From Escherichia coli (lineage in GTDB: Bacteria; Pseudomonadota; Gammaproteobacteria; Enterobacterales; Enterobacteriaceae): 64,000 nucleotides of DNA. The translations under genes and the position numbers were made by a program. Below the pieces are notes generated by a model that saw only the letters and a list, made by a program, of their open reading frames with translations, did no database searches and had not been told where the DNA came from. The stretch is from NCBI RefSeq assembly GCF_036507355.1, contig NZ_AP027877.1. One strand, 5' to 3'. Positions 25,715-38,945 of the stretch are shown here, piece after piece (positions within the stretch are counted from its first letter, which is position 1; each line of letters begins with the position of its first letter).

Positions 25715-25969
25715 ATGGAATGCCGTCCGGGTTGCGGGGCGTGTTGCACTGCCCCTTCAATTTCCAGCCCTATTCCCGGTATGCCAGATGGCAAGCCCGC
25801 CAATACGCCCTGCATTCAGCTTGATGAACAGCAACGCTGTAAAATTTTCACCTCGCCACTGCGGCCGAAAGTCTGTGCAGGCTTACAAGCCAGCGCTGAA
25901 ATGTGCGGTAACTCGCGTCAGCAGGCAATGACCTGGCTTATCGATCTGGAAATGCTGACCGCGCCTTAA
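25715..25969 (+). CDS. yeiW: Cysteine-rich UPF0153 protein YeiW (84 aa)
   Basis: [27 protein letters not shown]... with conserved Cys cluster; divergent from efpL. Confidence 0.8.
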
Positions 25970-27147
25970 ACATCTTTAATCCGCAGTAAGCAAAACAGAG
26001 TGGCGATAATCATCACCATCGCAAACCAGAACACAGCGTGATAATTCCAGATCTCGGCGACGATGCCCGCTACAGATCCTGCGATGATCCAGCCCACGCG
26101 CGACGTGTTGGTATAGAGCGTGGTGGCTGAACCTGCCTGACCGGGCATCAAATCCTGAAAATAGAGCATCCCGATGCCGCCCAGAATGCCAATAAAAATA
26201 GCATTTAGCAGTTGCAAGCCCAACAGAATGGCAGGTGAATGCGCCATCAGCATTCCTGCGTAAAAACAGACGCCACCCACGGCAGCAACGCGCATTAAGA
26301 AACGCTTACCCAGACGTTTGGCAAAATATCCGGCAATCAACATGGTCGGGATTTCCAGCCCGGCGGCGGTCCCCATCATTACGCCTGCCAGTTTCTCGGG
26401 AAGATGCAGTTCGTTGATTATAAATAGCGGCATGTTGATGATGTACAGACTGTTCGAGCCCCACATCAATGTACAAATGACAAACAGCAGCAGCGTATCG
26501 CGACGGTTACGGCGCGGCGCTTCAAGCGTGCCGGTCGCCAGCGGAAGCTCTTTTTGCATCGACGGTAAAAACAGCCACACCATCACGCCGCAAACAATAA
26601 ATGCTACCGCTGCGCTCAGATACATTACCGTAAAGCTGAACCCCATCGCTAAGGCATAAGCCAGCGGTGGGCCAATGACCCATGCCAGTGAAACCTGAGC
26701 GCGTAAAAAAGAGCTGAACATCACCGCCTCACGTCCGGTTTTGTCGGCATGTTCACGGGCAAGGGCAAACATTTGCGGGTTAGCGGTCGAGCCAAAGCTG
26801 CTAAGAAAGACGCCAACGAATAGCAAAACAAAGTAGTTGCGATTCCAGGCAAAAAGGGTGCAGGCCAGCACGCCTAACAGGCAGCAAAAGACAATCAGCG
26901 ATTTGCGATCGCCGCGCTTATCAGAGCGCCCGGCGAGAAACTGACTCACCAGAATCCCAATGACAGCGCTGCCGGTAAAGAAGAATCCCACCATCGCCGG
27001 ACGGGCATGTACTTCATCGGTAAGAAAAATACTGAGTGTCGGGGTTTGCAGAGCGCCCGCAATACCGGTGAGAAAGGCAACGATTAAAAACGCCGTCGAG
27101 GTCAGGTCAAACGATTTCGCGCTGGAGACTGCGGGGGAGTTATGCAT
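25966..27147 (-). CDS. setB: Sugar efflux MFS transporter SetB (393 aa)
   Basis: 12-TM MFS ORF; its stop codon overlaps the yeiW stop on the opposite strand. Confidence 0.9.
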
Positions 27148-33675: not shown

Positions 33676-34926
33676 ATGGATATAATGAGAAGTGTTGTGG
33701 GGATGGTGGTGTTACTGGCAATAGCATTTCTGTTGTCGGTAAATAAAAAGAGCATCAGTTTGCGCACGGTTGGAGCCGCACTGCTGCTGCAAATCGCTAT
33801 TGGTGGCATCATGCTCTATTTTCCGCCGGGAAAATGGGCAGTAGAACAGGCGGCATTAGGCGTTCATAAAGTGATGTCTTACAGTGATGCCGGTAGCGCC
33901 TTCATTTTTGGTTCGCTGGTTGGGCCGAAAATGGATGTCCTCTTTGACGGTGCGGGTTTTATCTTCGCCTTTCGCGTACTTCCGGCGATTATCTTCGTCA
34001 CTGCGCTCATTAGTCTGCTGTACTACATTGGCGTGATGGGGCTGCTGATTCGCATCCTTGGCAGCATTTTCCAGAAAGCCCTCAACATCAGCAAAATCGA
34101 ATCTTTTGTCGCAGTCACCACTATTTTCCTCGGGCAAAATGAGATCCCGGCGATCGTTAAACCGTTTATCGATCGCATGAATCGAAACGAGTTGTTTACC
34201 GCAATTTGTAGCGGGATGGCGTCCATTGCTGGTTCGATGATGATTGGTTATGCCGGAATGGGCGTACCAATTGACTACCTGTTAGCGGCATCGCTGATGG
34301 CGATCCCCGGCGGTATTTTGTTTGCACGAATTCTTAGTCCAGCAACCGAGCTTTCGCAGGTCACGTTTGAAAATCTGTCGTTCAGCGAAACGCCGCCAAA
34401 AAGCTTTATCGAAGCAGCGGCGAGCGGTGCGATGACCGGGCTGAAAATCGCCGCCGGTGTGGCGACGGTGGTCATGGCGTTTGTCGCAATTATTGCGCTG
34501 ATTAATGGCATTATTGGCGGAATTGGCGGCTGGTTTGGTTTTGCCAATGCCTCTCTGGAAAGTATTTTTGGCTATGTGCTGGCACCGCTGGCGTGGATCA
34601 TGGGTGTGGACTGGAGTGATGCCAACCTTGCGGGTAGCCTGATTGGGCAGAAACTGGCGATTAACGAATTCGTCGCTTACCTGAGTTTCTCCCCATACCT
34701 GCAAACGGGCGGCACGCTGGAAGTGAAAACCATTGCGATTATCTCCTTTGCGCTTTGTGGTTTTGCTAACTTTGGTTCTATCGGTGTTGTCGTTGGGGCA
34801 TTTTCGGCTATTTCGCCAAAACGTGCTCCGGAAATCGCCCAGCTTGGTTTACGGGCGCTGGCAGCAGCAACGCTTTCCAACCTGATGAGCGCGACCATTG
34901 CCGGGTTCTTTATTGGTTTAGCTTGA
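33676..34926 (+). CDS. psuT: NupC-family nucleoside transporter PsuT/YeiM (416 aa)
   Basis: Concentrative nucleoside transporter fold; close paralog of the nupX product in this window. Confidence 0.9.
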   Translation: MDIMRSVVGMVVLLAIAFLLSVNKKSISLRTVGAALLLQIAIGGIMLYFPPGKWAVEQAALGVHKVMSYSDAGSAFIFGSLVGPKMDVLFDGAGFIFAFRVLPAIIFVTALISLLYYIGVMGLLIRILGSIFQKALNISKIESFVAVTTIFLGQNEIPAIVKPFIDRMNRNELFTAICSGMASIAGSMMIGYAGMGVPIDYLLAASLMAIPGGILFARILSPATELSQVTFENLSFSETPPKSFIEAAASGAMTGLKIAAGVATVVMAFVAIIALINGIIGGIGGWFGFANASLESIFGYVLAPLAWIMGVDWSDANLAGSLIGQKLAINEFVAYLSFSPYLQTGGTLEVKTIAIISFALCGFANFGSIGVVVGAFSAISPKRAPEIAQLGLRALAAATLSNLMSATIAGFFIGLA

Positions 34927-35821: not shown

Positions 35822-36763
35822 ATGGAAAAGAGAAAAATTATTCTGGATTGTGATCCGGGTCATGATGATGCTATTGCAATGATGATGGCAGCGAAACATC
35901 CGGCAATAGATTTATTAGGCATCACTATTGTAGCGGGTAATCAGACGCTTGATAAAACATTAATTAATGGCCTGAATGTTTGCCAGAAACTGGAGATTAA
36001 TGTTCCGGTTTATGCGGGGATGCCGCAACCCATTATGCGTCAACAAATCGTTGCCGATAATATTCACGGTGAAACCGGACTGGATGGCCCGGTATTCGAG
36101 CCGCTGACCCGCCAGGCAGAAAGTACCCACGCGGTGAAATACATCATTGATACCCTGATGGCAAGCGATGGCGATATCACTCTGGTGCCGGTTGGTCCGT
36201 TGTCAAATATCGCGGTGGCAATGCGTATGCAATCCGCAATCCTGCCCAAAATCCGTGAAATTGTGCTAATGGGCGGCGCTTACGGTACAGGCAACTTCAC
36301 GCCATCTGCCGAGTTCAACATCTTTGCTGACCCGGAAGCCGCACGCGTGGTGTTCACCTCCGGCGTTCCATTAGTGATGATGGGCCTCGATCTTACCAAC
36401 CAGACCGTTTGCACCCCGGACGTAATTGTTCGGATGGAAAGGGCAGGCGGCCCTGCCGGAGAGCTATTCAGCGACATCATGAACTTCACTCTCAAAACGC
36501 AGTTCGAAAACTACGGCCTGGCTGGCGGCCCGGTGCACGACGCCACCTGCATCGGTTATCTGATTAACCCTGATGGCATTAAAACCCAGGAGATGTACGT
36601 CGAAGTGGACGTCAACAGTGGCCCTTGCTATGGGCGTACCGTCTGCGACGAGCTGGGCGTTCTTGGCAAGCCCGCTAATACCAAAGTCGGCATCACTATT
36701 GATACCGACTGGTTCTGGGGCTTAGTCGAAGAGTGCGTGCGCGGCTACATCAAAACCCATTAA
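35822..36763 (+). CDS. rihB: Pyrimidine-specific ribonucleoside hydrolase RihB/YeiK (313 aa)
   Basis: Nucleoside hydrolase N-terminal Asp cluster [11 protein letters not shown]. Confidence 0.92.
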
Positions 36764-36777
36764 GTGTTGATAACAAG

Positions 36778-36815
36778 CCGGGTCAGTATCGCAAAATGCA
36801 GGCCCGGCTATTTCT
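36778..36815 (+). terminator. Candidate rho-independent terminator downstream of rihB
   Basis: gccgggtcagtatcgcaaaatgcaggcccggc followed by tatttctg; long loop and weak U-tract. Confidence 0.45.
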
Positions 36816-36973
36816 GAGGGGCAGAAAGCCGTCGCCCAATATGACATGAAGAGATAATAACTATGGATGTCATGAGAAGTGTTCTGGGAATGGTGGTATT
36901 GCTGACGATTGCGTTTTTGGTGATGCTGCCAACTTACTGATTTAGTGTATGATGGTGTTTTTGAGGTGCTCCA

Positions 36974-37249
36974 GTGGCTTCTGTTTCTATCAGCTGTCCC
37001 TCCTGTTCAGCTACTGACGGGGTGGTGCGTAACGGCAAAAGCACCGCCGGACATCAGCGCTATCTCTGCTCTCACTGCCGTAAAACATGGCAACTGCAGT
37101 TCACTTACACCGCTTCTCAACCCGGTACGCACCAGAAAATCATTGATATGGCCATGAATGGCGTTGGATGCCGGGCAACAGCCCGCATTATGGGCGTTGG
37201 CCTCAACACGATTTTACGTCACTTAAAAAACTCAGGCCGCAGTCGGTAA
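36974..37249 (+). CDS. insA: IS1 transposition inhibitor InsA
   Basis: 91-aa ORF identical to the insA at 1926-2201. Confidence 0.9.
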
Positions 37250-37671
37250 CCTCGCGCATACAGCCGGGCAGTGACGTCATCGTCTGCGCGGAAATGGACG
37301 AACAGTGGGGCTATGTCGGGGCTAAATCGCGCCAGCGCTGGCTGTTTTACGCGTATGACAGGCTCCGGAAGACGGTTGTTGCGCACGTATTCGGTGAACG
37401 CACGATGGCGACGCTGGGGCGTCTTATGAGCCTGCTGTCACCCTTTGACGTGGTGATATGGATGACGGATGGCTGGCCGCTGTATGAATCCCGCCTGAAG
37501 GGAAAGCTGCACGTAATCAGCAAGCGATATACGCAGCGAATTGAGCGGCATAACCTGAATCTGAGGCAGCACCTGGCACGGCTGGGACGGAAGTCGCTGT
37601 CGTTCTCAAAATCGGTGGAGCTGCATGACAAAGTCATCGGGCATTATCTGAACATAAAACACTATCAATAA
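37168..37671 (+). CDS. insB: IS1 InsB reading frame (InsAB' transposase by frameshift)
   Basis: 167-aa ORF identical to the insB at 1504-2007. Confidence 0.9.
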
Positions 37672-38945
37672 GTTGGAGTCATTACCTGCGTTTTTACTGT
37701 CAGTAAACAAGAAGAAGATCAGCCTGCGTACCGTTGGCGCGGCGTTAGTGTTACAGGTTGTGATTGGCGGGATTATGCTTTGGTTACCGCCAGGGCGTTG
37801 GGTCGCTGAAAAAGTCGCTTTTGGCGTGCATAAAGTGATGGCGTACAGCGATGCAGGTAGCGCATTTATCTTCGGTTCGCTGGTCGGGCCGAAAATGGAC
37901 ACGCTGTTTGATGGCGCAGGATTTATCTTTGGTTTCAGGGTGTTACCGGCAATTATCTTCGTCACCGCGCTGGTGAGTATTCTCTATTACATCGGTGTGA
38001 TGGGGATCTTAATTCGCATTCTCGGCGGTATATTCCAGAAAGCATTAAATATCAGCAAGATCGAGTCATTCGTCGCGGTCACTACCATTTTCCTCGGGCA
38101 AAACGAAATTCCGGCGATCGTCAAACCCTTTATCGATCGTCTGAATCGCAATGAATTATTTACAGCGATTTGTAGTGGCATGGCCTCGATTGCTGGTTCG
38201 ACAATGATTGGTTACGCCGCACTGGGCGTGCCTGTGGAATATTTGCTGGCGGCATCGTTAATGGCGATCCCAGGCGGGATCTTGTTTGCCCGCCTGCTAA
38301 GCCCGGCTATGGAATCTTCGCAGGTTTCTTTTAATAACCTCTCTTTCACCGAAACACCGCCAAAAAGCATTATTGAAGCTGCCGCGACAGAGGCAATGAC
38401 CGGGCTGAAAATCGCCGCAGGTGTGGCGACAGTAGTGATGGCATTTGTCGCCATCATTGCGTTAATTAACGGTATTATCGGCGGCGTTGGCGGCTGGTTT
38501 GGTTTTGAACATGCCTCGCTGGAATCCATTTTAGGTTACCTGCTGGCCCCACTGGCGTGGGTGATGGGTGTTGACTGGAGTGATGCGAATCTTGCCGGGA
38601 GTTTGATTGGTCAGAAACTGGCAATAAATGAATTTGTCGCTTATCTCAATTTCTCACCCTATCTGCAAACGGCTGACAAGCTGGATGCTAAAACCGTGGC
38701 GATTATTTCCTTCGCGTTGTGCGGTTTCGCTAACTTTGGTTCTATCGGGGTGGTGGTGGGGGCGTTTTCTGCGGTTGCGCCACACCGTGCGCCGGAAATC
38801 GCCCAACTTGGTTTACGCGCGCTGGCGGCGGCGACACTTTCTAATCTGATGAGTGCCACCATTGCCGGGTTCTTTATTGGTTTAGCGTAGTGTGCGATTT
38901 ATGAGCCGGATAATATGCGGTCAAGCGTCGAATCCGGCAACATTG

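What the first reader, a model, noticed from the sequence alone, without database searches (positions are those of the whole stretch)
36863..38890. IS1 splits the nucleoside permease gene nupX at codon 19
Nineteen codons of nupX (MDVMRSVLGMVVLLTIAFL) precede the IS1 and the frame continues immediately after the 9-bp duplication. The upstream rihB stays intact. The insertion separates the nupX coding body from its promoter and start codon, so it is a likely null allele unless an outward-reading promoter in IS1 drives a truncated product. The close paralog psuT, 3 kb upstream, is intact.
Basis: seen in the sequence. Interest (0 to 1): 0.35.

Follow-up and report, generated by a model that had tools for sequence, protein, structure and literature searches.

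The report
IS1 insertion knocks out nupX
A 768-bp IS1 jumping gene has landed inside codon 19 of the E. coli pyrimidine-nucleoside transporter gene nupX, almost certainly inactivating it; this is a recent, strain-private and ordinary gene knockout, although public annotation lists the leftover reading frame as an intact transporter.

Summary
An intact 768-bp IS1 (36919-37686, + strand) lies inside codon 19 of nupX. It is flanked by a perfect 9-bp target duplication, TGCGTTTTT. Removing IS1 and one duplicate restores a 416-aa NupX.

rihB (313 aa) and the paralog psuT (416 aa, 87% identical to NupX) are intact.

The insertion is simple and recent. Two near-identical E. coli genomes carry the empty site and differ from the window by 3 substitutions and no gaps over 13.1 kb and 20.9 kb. 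The junction is absent from 5,426 complete E. coli genomes, from GTDB representative genomes and from JGI metagenome contigs.

No usable hybrid promoter or ribosome-binding site was found at the IS1-nupX junction. The only in-frame restart, a TTG inside the IS1 right end, would give a protein without transmembrane helix 1. The allele is therefore most likely null. That is inferred, not measured.

Three further points:
- GenBank and RefSeq list this TTG-initiated 405-aa frame as a normal transporter (BED21752.1 / WP_338388253.1).
- The window has two private missense changes, nupX G251E at a conserved glycine and rihB A203V. This fits relaxed selection on the rihB-nupX pair, on very small counts.
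- O157:H7 carries an independent nupX pseudogene.

This is an ordinary IS knockout of low novelty.

The parts
33676..34926 (+). psuT, the intact CNT-family paralog of nupX (416 aa)
   Evidence: All three CNT Pfam domains match over their full length. It differs from K-12 PsuT by 1 aa. It is 87% identical (363/416) to the repaired NupX.
35822..36763 (+). rihB, pyrimidine ribonucleoside hydrolase, intact (313 aa). It carries the window-private missense A203V (C>T at 36429).
   Evidence: Pfam IU_nuc_hydro, E 1.1e-96, profile positions 1-296 of 297. The K-12 CDS has the same length and there is no internal stop. The private substitution was polarised against nine other loci that gave a base at this site and recurs against L012. 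This exact RihB protein is recorded on only one contig.
36776..36809 (+). Stable hairpin just after the rihB stop, followed by AUUUCU. It may be a terminator or attenuator between rihB and nupX.
   Evidence: strand folding gives -29.8 kcal/mol for the 109-nt intergenic stretch, z = -1.6. The terminator scan did not report it. Its function is unknown.
36863..36918 (+). nupX 5' stub: the start codon, 18 complete codons and two bases of codon 19. As it stands it reads into IS1 and encodes a 25-aa peptide, MDVMRSVLGMVVLLTIAFLVMLPTY, ending at TGA 36938-36940.
   Evidence: The start agrees with the annotated K-12 b2161 CDS.
36910..36918 (.). Left copy of the 9-bp target-site duplication TGCGTTTTT
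   Evidence: the repeat finder family D3, 100% identical, spacing 777 = 768 + 9.
36919..37686 (+). Complete IS1 element (768 bp), in the same orientation as nupX
   Evidence: Length and ends are and the 23-nt inverted repeats. The IS1 half of each junction query finds annotated 'IS1-like element IS1A family transposase' features, and thousands of records have a best match at >=99% identity. It is 100% identical to the second copy in the window at 1489-2256.
36926..36953 (+). Promoter-like site inside the IS1 left end (CTGCCA, 16 nt, TATGAT), reading inward towards insA
   Evidence: It is the only sigma-70-like site found in 36700-37900. Its position matches IS1's own left-end promoter, which is established knowledge and was not tested here.
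36974..37249 (+). insA (91 aa, GTG start)
   Evidence: Pfam Zn_ribbon_InsA (1.3e-21) and HTH_Tnp_IS1 (4.7e-31).
37168..37671 (+). insB' frame (167 aa), with the AAAAAAC -1 frameshift motif at 37225-37231 in the insA/insB' overlap
   Evidence: Pfam DDE_Tnp_IS1, 2.3e-78, profile positions 1-131 of 131.
37687..37695 (.). Right copy of the 9-bp target-site duplication TGCGTTTTT
37673..38890 (+). Chimeric open frame of 405 aa. It starts at a TTG inside the IS1 right inverted repeat, with one base between it and the insB' stop codon. It reads MESLP and then NupX residues 17-416. Public records annotate it as an intact transporter.
   Evidence: the ORF listing and the translation. Pfam Nucleos_tra2_N matches only from profile position 10. 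The exact sequence is GenBank BED21752.1 / RefSeq WP_338388253.1 and is recorded on one contig of 4,643,937 bp.
37696..38890 (+). nupX coding body downstream of the duplication: the third base of codon 19 through codon 416 and the stop. It carries the window-private missense G251E (G>A at 38391).
   Evidence: G251E is private among the 11 nupX alleles compared, and the ancestral base is confirmed. The glycine is conserved in PsuT, CNTNW and vcCNT.

Best explanation
A single, simple transposition put an intact IS1 inside codon 19 of nupX in the recent ancestry of this one E. coli strain. nupX encodes a CNT-family transporter that takes up uridine and cytidine at low efficiency. It lies next to rihB, which encodes a pyrimidine nucleoside hydrolase.

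The insertion cuts nupX codons 1-18, its start codon and everything upstream away from the rest of the gene. Translation from the native start now ends after 25 residues inside IS1.

The 3' body can only be transcribed by read-through out of or across IS1. It could only be translated from start codons that have no ribosome-binding site, and the product would lack transmembrane helix 1. The allele is therefore a null or near-null.

The loss is probably tolerated because NupC, NupG and the intact paralog PsuT remain, and because nupX appears dispensable in other lineages.

What is shown: the structure, the empty site in near-identical genomes, the privacy of the insertion, and the absence of consensus expression signals. 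What is inferred: loss of expression and loss of function.
For: **IS1 anatomy.** The element is 768 bp with 23-nt inverted repeats, insA, insB' and the A6C frameshift motif.

**Simple transposition.**
- There is a perfect 9-bp duplication.
- Precise removal restores a 416-aa frame that differs from K-12 NupX by 4 aa.
- With IS1 and one duplicate removed, the window aligns without gaps to L006 (GCA_905398635.1) over 13,089 bp with 3 mismatches.
- It likewise aligns to L012 (GCA_016660925.1) over 20,939 bp with 3 mismatches.
- In both relatives nupX is an intact 416-aa gene.

**Privacy of the insertion.**
- 0 of 5,426 complete E. coli genomes cover either junction.
- There is no exact junction match in the GTDB representative genomes or in the JGI metagenome contigs.
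- The 405-aa junction-derived protein is recorded on one contig only.

**No expression signals.**
- No sigma-70-like site lies at the right junction.
- No -35/-10 pair across the junction reaches the 7-of-12 cut-off of the script, and no Shine-Dalgarno-like match lies at a usable distance before any in-frame start.
- The mean hydropathy of the first 19-residue window drops from about 1.9-2.2 in native NupX to 0.2-0.7 in the IS1-initiated frame.

**Function of NupX.** The K-12 protein expressed from a plasmid transports uridine and cytidine with low efficiency (PMC11241209).

**Dispensability.** O157:H7 TR01 nupX is annotated as a pseudogene and has a stop at codon 350.

**Signs of decay in this lineage.** The window-private substitutions G251E (nupX) and A203V (rihB) are both missense and both lie in the rihB-nupX pair.
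Against: - No expression or transport data exist for this strain.
- IS1 is oriented so that its own transcription runs into the nupX body, and no convincing terminator lies between them. The only candidates, at 37724-37744, have weak T tracts, and the scan found 3 sites against 1.2 expected by chance.
- An in-frame TTG follows the insB' stop codon with one base between them, so a trace of an N-terminally remodelled protein cannot be excluded.
- The relaxed-selection argument rests on two substitutions.
Confidence: 0.85

Rival explanations
1. The allele is not null. IS1 supplies the expression signals, either read-through from the IS1 promoter or a hybrid promoter, together with the TTG at 37673 in the right inverted repeat. 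These signals produce a 405-aa NupX variant (MESLP + residues 17-416) that still inserts in the membrane and transports nucleosides, as the public annotation implies.
For: - The frame is open from TTG 37673 to the native stop and keeps 400 of 416 residues.
- It lies in the same orientation as insA/insB', with one base between the insB' stop codon and the TTG. Transcriptional read-through and translational re-initiation are therefore conceivable.
- GenBank and RefSeq annotate it as a transporter.
- IS1 ends are known to carry an outward -35 box that can form hybrid promoters (PMC8764528; PMC9330008).
Against: - The right-end -35-like hexamer TTGGAG matches 3 of 6 positions. The best -10 in the flank, TACTGT at 16 nt, also matches 3 of 6. 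The scan reports no promoter there (hexamer matches counted by hand).
- No Shine-Dalgarno-like sequence precedes the TTG.
- InsAB' translation is rare by design, since it needs a frameshift (established knowledge).
- The product lacks the first transmembrane helix, which is conserved in the solved homologs that align from residue 2.
- The body also carries G251E at a glycine conserved in PsuT, CNTNW and vcCNT.
- An annotation pipeline accepting a 97%-length ORF is not evidence of function.
Confidence: 0.07
2. The loss of nupX was selected rather than neutral. For example, it might reduce uptake of a toxic nucleoside analogue or remove a costly membrane protein. The IS1 allele would then be adaptive.
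For: - nupX is independently inactivated in O157:H7.
- Both window-private substitutions that could be polarised fall in rihB-nupX, which is about 10% of the 20.9 kb compared. My own binomial arithmetic gives about 0.01-0.03, and the test is post hoc.
Against: - The insertion is private to one genome and is absent from its nearest relatives, so there is no sign of spread.
- NupX is identical in amino-acid sequence between K-12 and O145 despite 43 nucleotide differences. That indicates purifying selection elsewhere in the species.
- Repeated loss fits dispensability equally well.
- The counts are too small for a test.
Confidence: 0.06
3. The IS1 copy at this site is an assembly artefact, a repeat misplaced during assembly.
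For: IS1 is multicopy. A second, 100% identical copy lies in the same window, and repeats of this kind are what assemblers misplace.
Against: - A perfect 9-bp target duplication sits exactly at both ends. Misassembly does not create one.
- The flanks are colinear with two relatives, base for base.
- The source record is a single 4.64-Mb contig.
Confidence: 0.02

Closest known systems
Classical IS1 insertional inactivation of a chromosomal gene (as in gal/lac polar mutants and the many IS1-split genes of E. coli B and Shigella; from general knowledge)
   Same: A complete 768-bp IS1 with 23-nt inverted repeats, insA/insB' and a 9-bp target duplication, inserted in a T-rich target inside a coding sequence and separating the gene body from its start.
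   Different: Nothing mechanistic differs. This site (nupX codon 19) was not found in any other genome searched. nupX is the last gene before the convergent yeiI, so no downstream gene is subject to polarity.
IS1-generated hybrid promoters (Prentki et al. 1986, cited in PMC9330008; afaA in ST131, PMC8764528)
   Same: An IS1 end abuts a gene body in an orientation where its outward -35-like box faces the gene.
   Different: Here the insertion is inside the coding sequence, not upstream of it. The flank has no adequate -10 at 16-18 nt. The PMC8764528 authors likewise found that IS1 raises transcription only when it is optimally placed relative to a -10.
nupX pseudogene of E. coli O157:H7 (PGAP annotation 'internal stop', strain TR01)
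   Same: The same gene is inactivated in another lineage while rihB and psuT stay intact.
   Different: The lesion is different and independent. It is a run of altered residues at 346-358 with a stop at codon 350, not an IS insertion.
K-12 NupX (b2161, P33021), CNT family, vcCNT/CNTNW clade
   Same: Orthologous by synteny (rihB upstream, yeiI downstream). The repaired gene differs by 53 of 1251 nt and 4 of 416 aa and has all three CNT Pfam domains. It matches solved CNTNW and vcCNT structures with E-values of 1e-128 and 4e-123.
   Different: The window allele is interrupted. It also carries T224M, G346D and T347K, which are shared with its close relative L006, and the private G251E.

Membership tests
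IS1 family insertion sequence | Element of about 768 bp bounded by imperfect terminal inverted repeats of about 23 bp that begin GGTGATGCTGCCAACTTACTGAT | tested here: met
   36919-37686 is 768 bp. The inverted repeats are 23 nt and 78% complementary. The left-end 23-mer matches exactly.
IS1 family insertion sequence | insA and insB' frames overlapping at an A6C -1 frameshift motif, with InsA zinc-ribbon/HTH and DDE_Tnp_IS1 domains | tested here: met
   Pfam PF03811, PF12759 and PF03400 all score far above their cut-offs. AAAAAAC lies at 37225 in the overlap.
IS1 family insertion sequence | Target-site duplication of 8-9 bp | tested here: met
   A perfect 9-bp TGCGTTTTT lies on both sides. The second copy in the window has an 8-bp duplication, GAAATTAA.
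IS1 family insertion sequence | Near-identity to curated IS1 copies | tested here: met
   The IS1 halves of the junction queries match features annotated 'IS1-like element IS1A family transposase'. The best match is >=99% identical in 6,371 records (left junction) and 5,599 records (right junction).
IS1 family insertion sequence | Transposition activity of this copy | not testable with these tools
   All sequence features are intact and the copy is identical to a second one. Activity needs an experiment.
nupX (E. coli b2161), CNT/NupC family transporter | Nucleos_tra2_N, Gate and Nucleos_tra2_C domains | tested here: met
   All three are found in the downstream frame. The N-terminal domain is truncated, starting at profile position 10.
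nupX (E. coli b2161), CNT/NupC family transporter | Orthology with K-12 nupX: conserved neighbours and high identity over the full length | tested here: met
   Gene order is psuK-psuG-psuT-yeiL-rihB-nupX-yeiI-nfo, as in K-12, O145 and O157. The repaired gene has the same length, with 53 nt and 4 aa differences from K-12.
nupX (E. coli b2161), CNT/NupC family transporter | Uninterrupted 416-codon reading frame from the native start | tested here: not met
   The frame from ATG 36863 stops after 25 codons inside IS1. The locus is a disrupted allele of the gene.
nupX (E. coli b2161), CNT/NupC family transporter | Nucleoside transport activity | not testable with these tools
   The only data are for the K-12 protein: uridine and cytidine uptake at low efficiency (PMC11241209).
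IS1 hybrid (fusion) promoter | Outward -35 box in the IS1 end followed at 16-18 nt by a functional -10 hexamer in the flank | tested here: not met
   The best candidate is TTGGAG, 16 nt, TACTGT, which matches 6 of 12 positions by hand count. It was not reported by the scan, which needs 9 of 12, or by the custom scan, which needs 7 of 12.

The most novel reading that the evidence does not exclude
The right end of IS1 acts as a portable translation start. Its TTG at 37673 follows the transposase stop codon with one base between them and is in frame with nupX. Ribosomes finishing InsAB' or InsB-frame translation would re-initiate there and make a helix-1-less NupX. That protein might still insert, because the KKK loop stays cytoplasmic, and might still transport nucleosides. 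Transporter output would then be coupled to IS1 expression.
Probability: 0.04. Interest if true: 0.3.

Novelty: new member of a known kind. Interest (0 to 1): 0.12.

Why it matters
The biological significance is small. One strain has lost one of three CNT-family nucleoside transporters through a textbook IS1 hit.

Two practical points follow.

1. GenBank and RefSeq list the leftover frame as an ordinary 405-aa 'NupC/NupG family nucleoside CNT transporter', initiated from a TTG inside the IS1 inverted repeat. This shows how an IS-split gene escapes pseudogene flagging when the IS end happens to offer an in-frame start. Pan-genome and metabolic-model pipelines would then count a dead gene as present.

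2. Three observations suggest that the rihB-nupX pyrimidine-nucleoside module is dispensable in E. coli and decays repeatedly. They are the independent O157:H7 pseudogene, the private missense changes in rihB and nupX, and other split genes in this locus in related assemblies. This bears on what the module is for, which is still poorly defined.

Tried and rejected
1. **Source contig look-up.** I tried to fetch the source contig by exact protein match for RihB and for the 405-aa frame. Nothing was on record. The source could only be identified through the cluster table, as an E. coli record with proteins BED21747-BED21753 on a contig of 4,643,937 bp.

2. **Shigella origin.** I first suspected a Shigella origin, because no E. 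coli genome carried the junction and nupX was only 98.5% identical to the best complete genome. I rejected this. The proteins are filed under E. coli, and E. coli assemblies 99.98-99.99% identical over 13-21 kb exist.

3. **Pseudogene decay of nupX.** I considered whether the 1.5% divergence of nupX from the best complete genome reflected decay. It mostly does not. The close relative L006 has an intact nupX that differs from the repaired window gene by only 2 nt. The divergence is therefore allelic, and only G251E is private.

4. **Junction searches.** Exact junction searches of the GTDB representative genomes and of metagenome contigs found nothing.

5. **Expression signals.** The promoter and terminator scan and a custom hexamer and Shine-Dalgarno scan found no expression signals at the right junction.

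6. **rihB-nupX hairpin.** The hairpin folds stably, but its z-score is only -1.6. I did not pursue it.
Full report
**1. What is in the sequence**

The nupX start codon is at 36863. Eighteen complete codons follow, MDVMRSVLGMVVLLTIAF. After the first two bases of codon 19 a 768-bp element begins at 36919 and ends at 37686.

The element has all the features of IS1:
- The 23-nt imperfect terminal inverted repeats are GGTGATGCTGCCAACTTACTGAT and ATCAATAAGTTGGAGTCATTACC.
- A 91-aa frame carries the InsA zinc-ribbon and HTH domains, and a 167-aa frame carries the complete DDE_Tnp_IS1 domain.
- The AAAAAAC frameshift motif lies at 37225 in the overlap of the two frames.

The element is flanked by a perfect 9-bp direct repeat, TGCGTTTTT, at 36910-36918 and 37687-37695. 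The IS1 left-end 23-mer occurs only twice in the 64-kb window, against none in shuffles.

Deleting IS1 and one repeat copy gives a 1251-nt open frame of 416 codons. As the sequence stands, the native start yields a 25-residue peptide that ends at a TGA inside IS1. The break lies inside codon 19.

**2. Identity of the genes**

The gene order is psuK-psuG-psuT-yeiL-rihB-nupX-yeiI-nfo-yeiH, which matches K-12, O145:H28 and O157:H7.

- The repaired nupX has the same length as K-12 b2161 and differs from it by 53 nt and 4 aa.
- It has the three CNT Pfam domains.
- It matches the solved CNTNW and vcCNT transporters from residue 2 to the C-terminus, with E-values of 1e-128 and 4e-123.
- rihB is full length at 313 aa.
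- psuT is full length at 416 aa, differs from K-12 PsuT by 1 aa, and is 87% identical to NupX.

From the literature, K-12 NupX expressed from a plasmid transports uridine and cytidine with low efficiency and does not transport gemcitabine (PMC11241209). RihB is a cytidine/uridine-preferring nucleoside hydrolase (PMC10526354). rihB-nupX therefore looks like a module for uptake and hydrolysis of pyrimidine ribonucleosides. That last step is my inference.

**3. A simple, recent and private insertion**

*Absence elsewhere*
- Neither 300-bp junction query is covered at 80% or more in any of 5,426 complete E. coli genomes. Every hit stops at the IS1 boundary or at the nupX boundary.
- Exact junction 37-mers are absent from the GTDB representative genomes and from the JGI metagenome contigs.

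*Source genome.* Exact-sequence look-up shows that the window comes from an E. coli record with proteins BED21747-BED21753 on a 4,643,937-bp contig. The junction-derived 405-aa protein and this RihB variant are each recorded on that one contig only.

*Empty site in close relatives.* I recovered relatives through the shared YeiI and PsuG alleles.
- In all eight loci shown for the YeiI allele, nupX is an intact 416-aa gene.
- For the PsuG allele, 10 contigs carry it. One locus is shown, with an intact nupX, and nine similar places are not shown.
- With IS1 and one duplicate removed, the window aligns without any gap to L006 (GCA_905398635.1), with 3 mismatches in 13,089 bp.
- It aligns in the same way to L012 (GCA_016660925.1), with 3 mismatches in 20,939 bp.

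This is the empty-site control. It shows a clean transposition with no deletion or rearrangement. It also shows that the insertion is younger than a divergence of about 1.4-2.3 substitutions per 10 kb. The duplication and the base-for-base colinearity argue strongly against an assembly artefact.

**4. Consequences for nupX**

IS1 has the same orientation as nupX, so its right end abuts the gene body.

*Transcription*
- The sigma-70 scan of 36700-37900 finds only the inward-reading site in the IS1 left end, at 36926-36953.
- IS1 ends are known to carry an outward -35 box that forms a hybrid promoter when a -10 lies at the right distance (PMC8764528; PMC9330008 citing Prentki 1986).
- Here the right-end hexamer is TTGGAG (3 of 6). 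The best flank hexamer is TACTGT (3 of 6) after 16 nt. These matches are my hand count from the sequence.
- The custom scan required at least 7 of 12 matches and found no pair that spans the junction.

*Translation*
- None of the eight in-frame ATG/GTG/TTG codons in the first 80 codons after IS1 has a Shine-Dalgarno-like match at a usable distance.
- The longest frame starts at TTG 37673, inside the inverted repeat, with one base between it and the insB' stop codon.
- That frame replaces NupX residues 1-16 with MESLP.
- The mean Kyte-Doolittle hydropathy of the first 19-residue windows falls from 1.9-2.2 to 0.2-0.7. The first transmembrane helix is therefore lost.

Classical work describes IS1 insertions as strongly polar. 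This is from my own knowledge and was not checked here.

Taken together, the allele is most likely a null or a severe hypomorph. That is an inference from the absence of signals, not a measurement. nupX is the last gene before the convergent yeiI, so no downstream gene is affected.

**5. Additional findings**

(a) *Annotation.* GenBank (BED21752.1, 'nucleoside permease') and RefSeq (WP_338388253.1, 'NupC/NupG family nucleoside CNT transporter') list the TTG-initiated 405-aa frame as a normal protein.

(b) *Private substitutions.*
- Against L006 the three mismatches are rihB A203V (36429), nupX A194V (38220) and nupX G251E (38391).
- Polarisation against other loci makes A203V and G251E private to the window and A194V private to L006.
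- Against L012 the same two window-private changes recur, together with one unpolarised difference at 26641.
- Gly251 is conserved in PsuT, CNTNW and vcCNT.
- By contrast, NupX has no amino-acid differences between K-12 and O145 despite 43 nucleotide differences.
- Two private missense changes both falling in the roughly 10% of the compared DNA that is rihB-nupX suggests relaxed selection on the module after the knockout. My own binomial estimate is about 0.01-0.03. The test is post hoc and rests on two events.

(c) *Independent loss.* O157:H7 TR01 carries an independent nupX pseudogene with a stop at codon 350.

**6. Comparison with known systems and verdict**

This is a textbook IS1 insertional knockout. 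Every defining feature of IS1 that could be tested was met, and the hybrid-promoter criterion was not met. The specific allele has apparently not been described and is mis-annotated. The kind of event is thoroughly known.

The most novel reading that the evidence leaves open is a functional, IS1-initiated NupX lacking helix 1. It has no positive support beyond the open frame, and I give it about 4%.

Novelty: a new member of a known kind. Interest is low.

Noticed in passing
window 1489-2256 (- strand); flanks 1481-1488 and 2257-2264: A second IS1 copy, 768/768 identical to the nupX copy, with an 8-bp duplication GAAATTAA. Removing it and one duplicate restores an 863-aa open frame running from ATG 1253 to 4620, the yejO autotransporter. 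This IS1 therefore also splits a gene, near codon 79. Ten complete E. coli genomes have an IS1 in or next to yejO, but the record spans differ, so the site is apparently not the same.
   Followed up: partly
window 37673-38890: GenBank BED21752.1 and RefSeq WP_338388253.1 annotate the frame left after the IS1 insertion as an intact 405-aa CNT transporter. Its start codon is a TTG inside the IS1 right inverted repeat. This is an annotation artefact that hides a disrupted gene.
   Followed up: yes
window 36429 (rihB codon 203) and 38391 (nupX codon 251): The two window-private substitutions that could be polarised against near-identical relatives are both missense (A203V and G251E), and both lie in the rihB-nupX pair. 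L006's own private change (A194V, 38220) is also a missense change in nupX. This may reflect relaxed selection on the module, but the numbers are very small.
   Followed up: partly
L002 6741-7991 (E. coli O157:H7 TR01): nupX is annotated as a pseudogene ('internal stop'). Residues 346-358 are altered and codon 350 is a stop, while rihB and psuT are intact. This is an independent loss of the same gene.
   Followed up: partly
L008 8495-9436 and 11812-12615; L011 10331-11570: Other assemblies that share the window's YeiI allele show split or shortened genes in the same cluster. In the metagenome scaffold L008, rihB is called as two pieces (128 + 171 aa) and psuG is shortened to 267 aa. In L011, psuT is called as two pieces (150 + 272 aa). 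These could be real decay or assembly and sequencing errors.
   Followed up: no
window 36776-36809: A stable GC-rich hairpin, AGCCGGGUC...GGCCCGGCU, lies 13 nt after the rihB stop and is followed by AUUUCU. It may be a terminator or attenuator between rihB and nupX. The terminator scan did not report it.
   Followed up: partly
window 26641: A single difference (C in the window, A in L012) inside the 393-aa minus-strand ORF at 25966-27147. L012 calls the matching product an MFS_1 protein, probably setB. It was not polarised.
   Followed up: no
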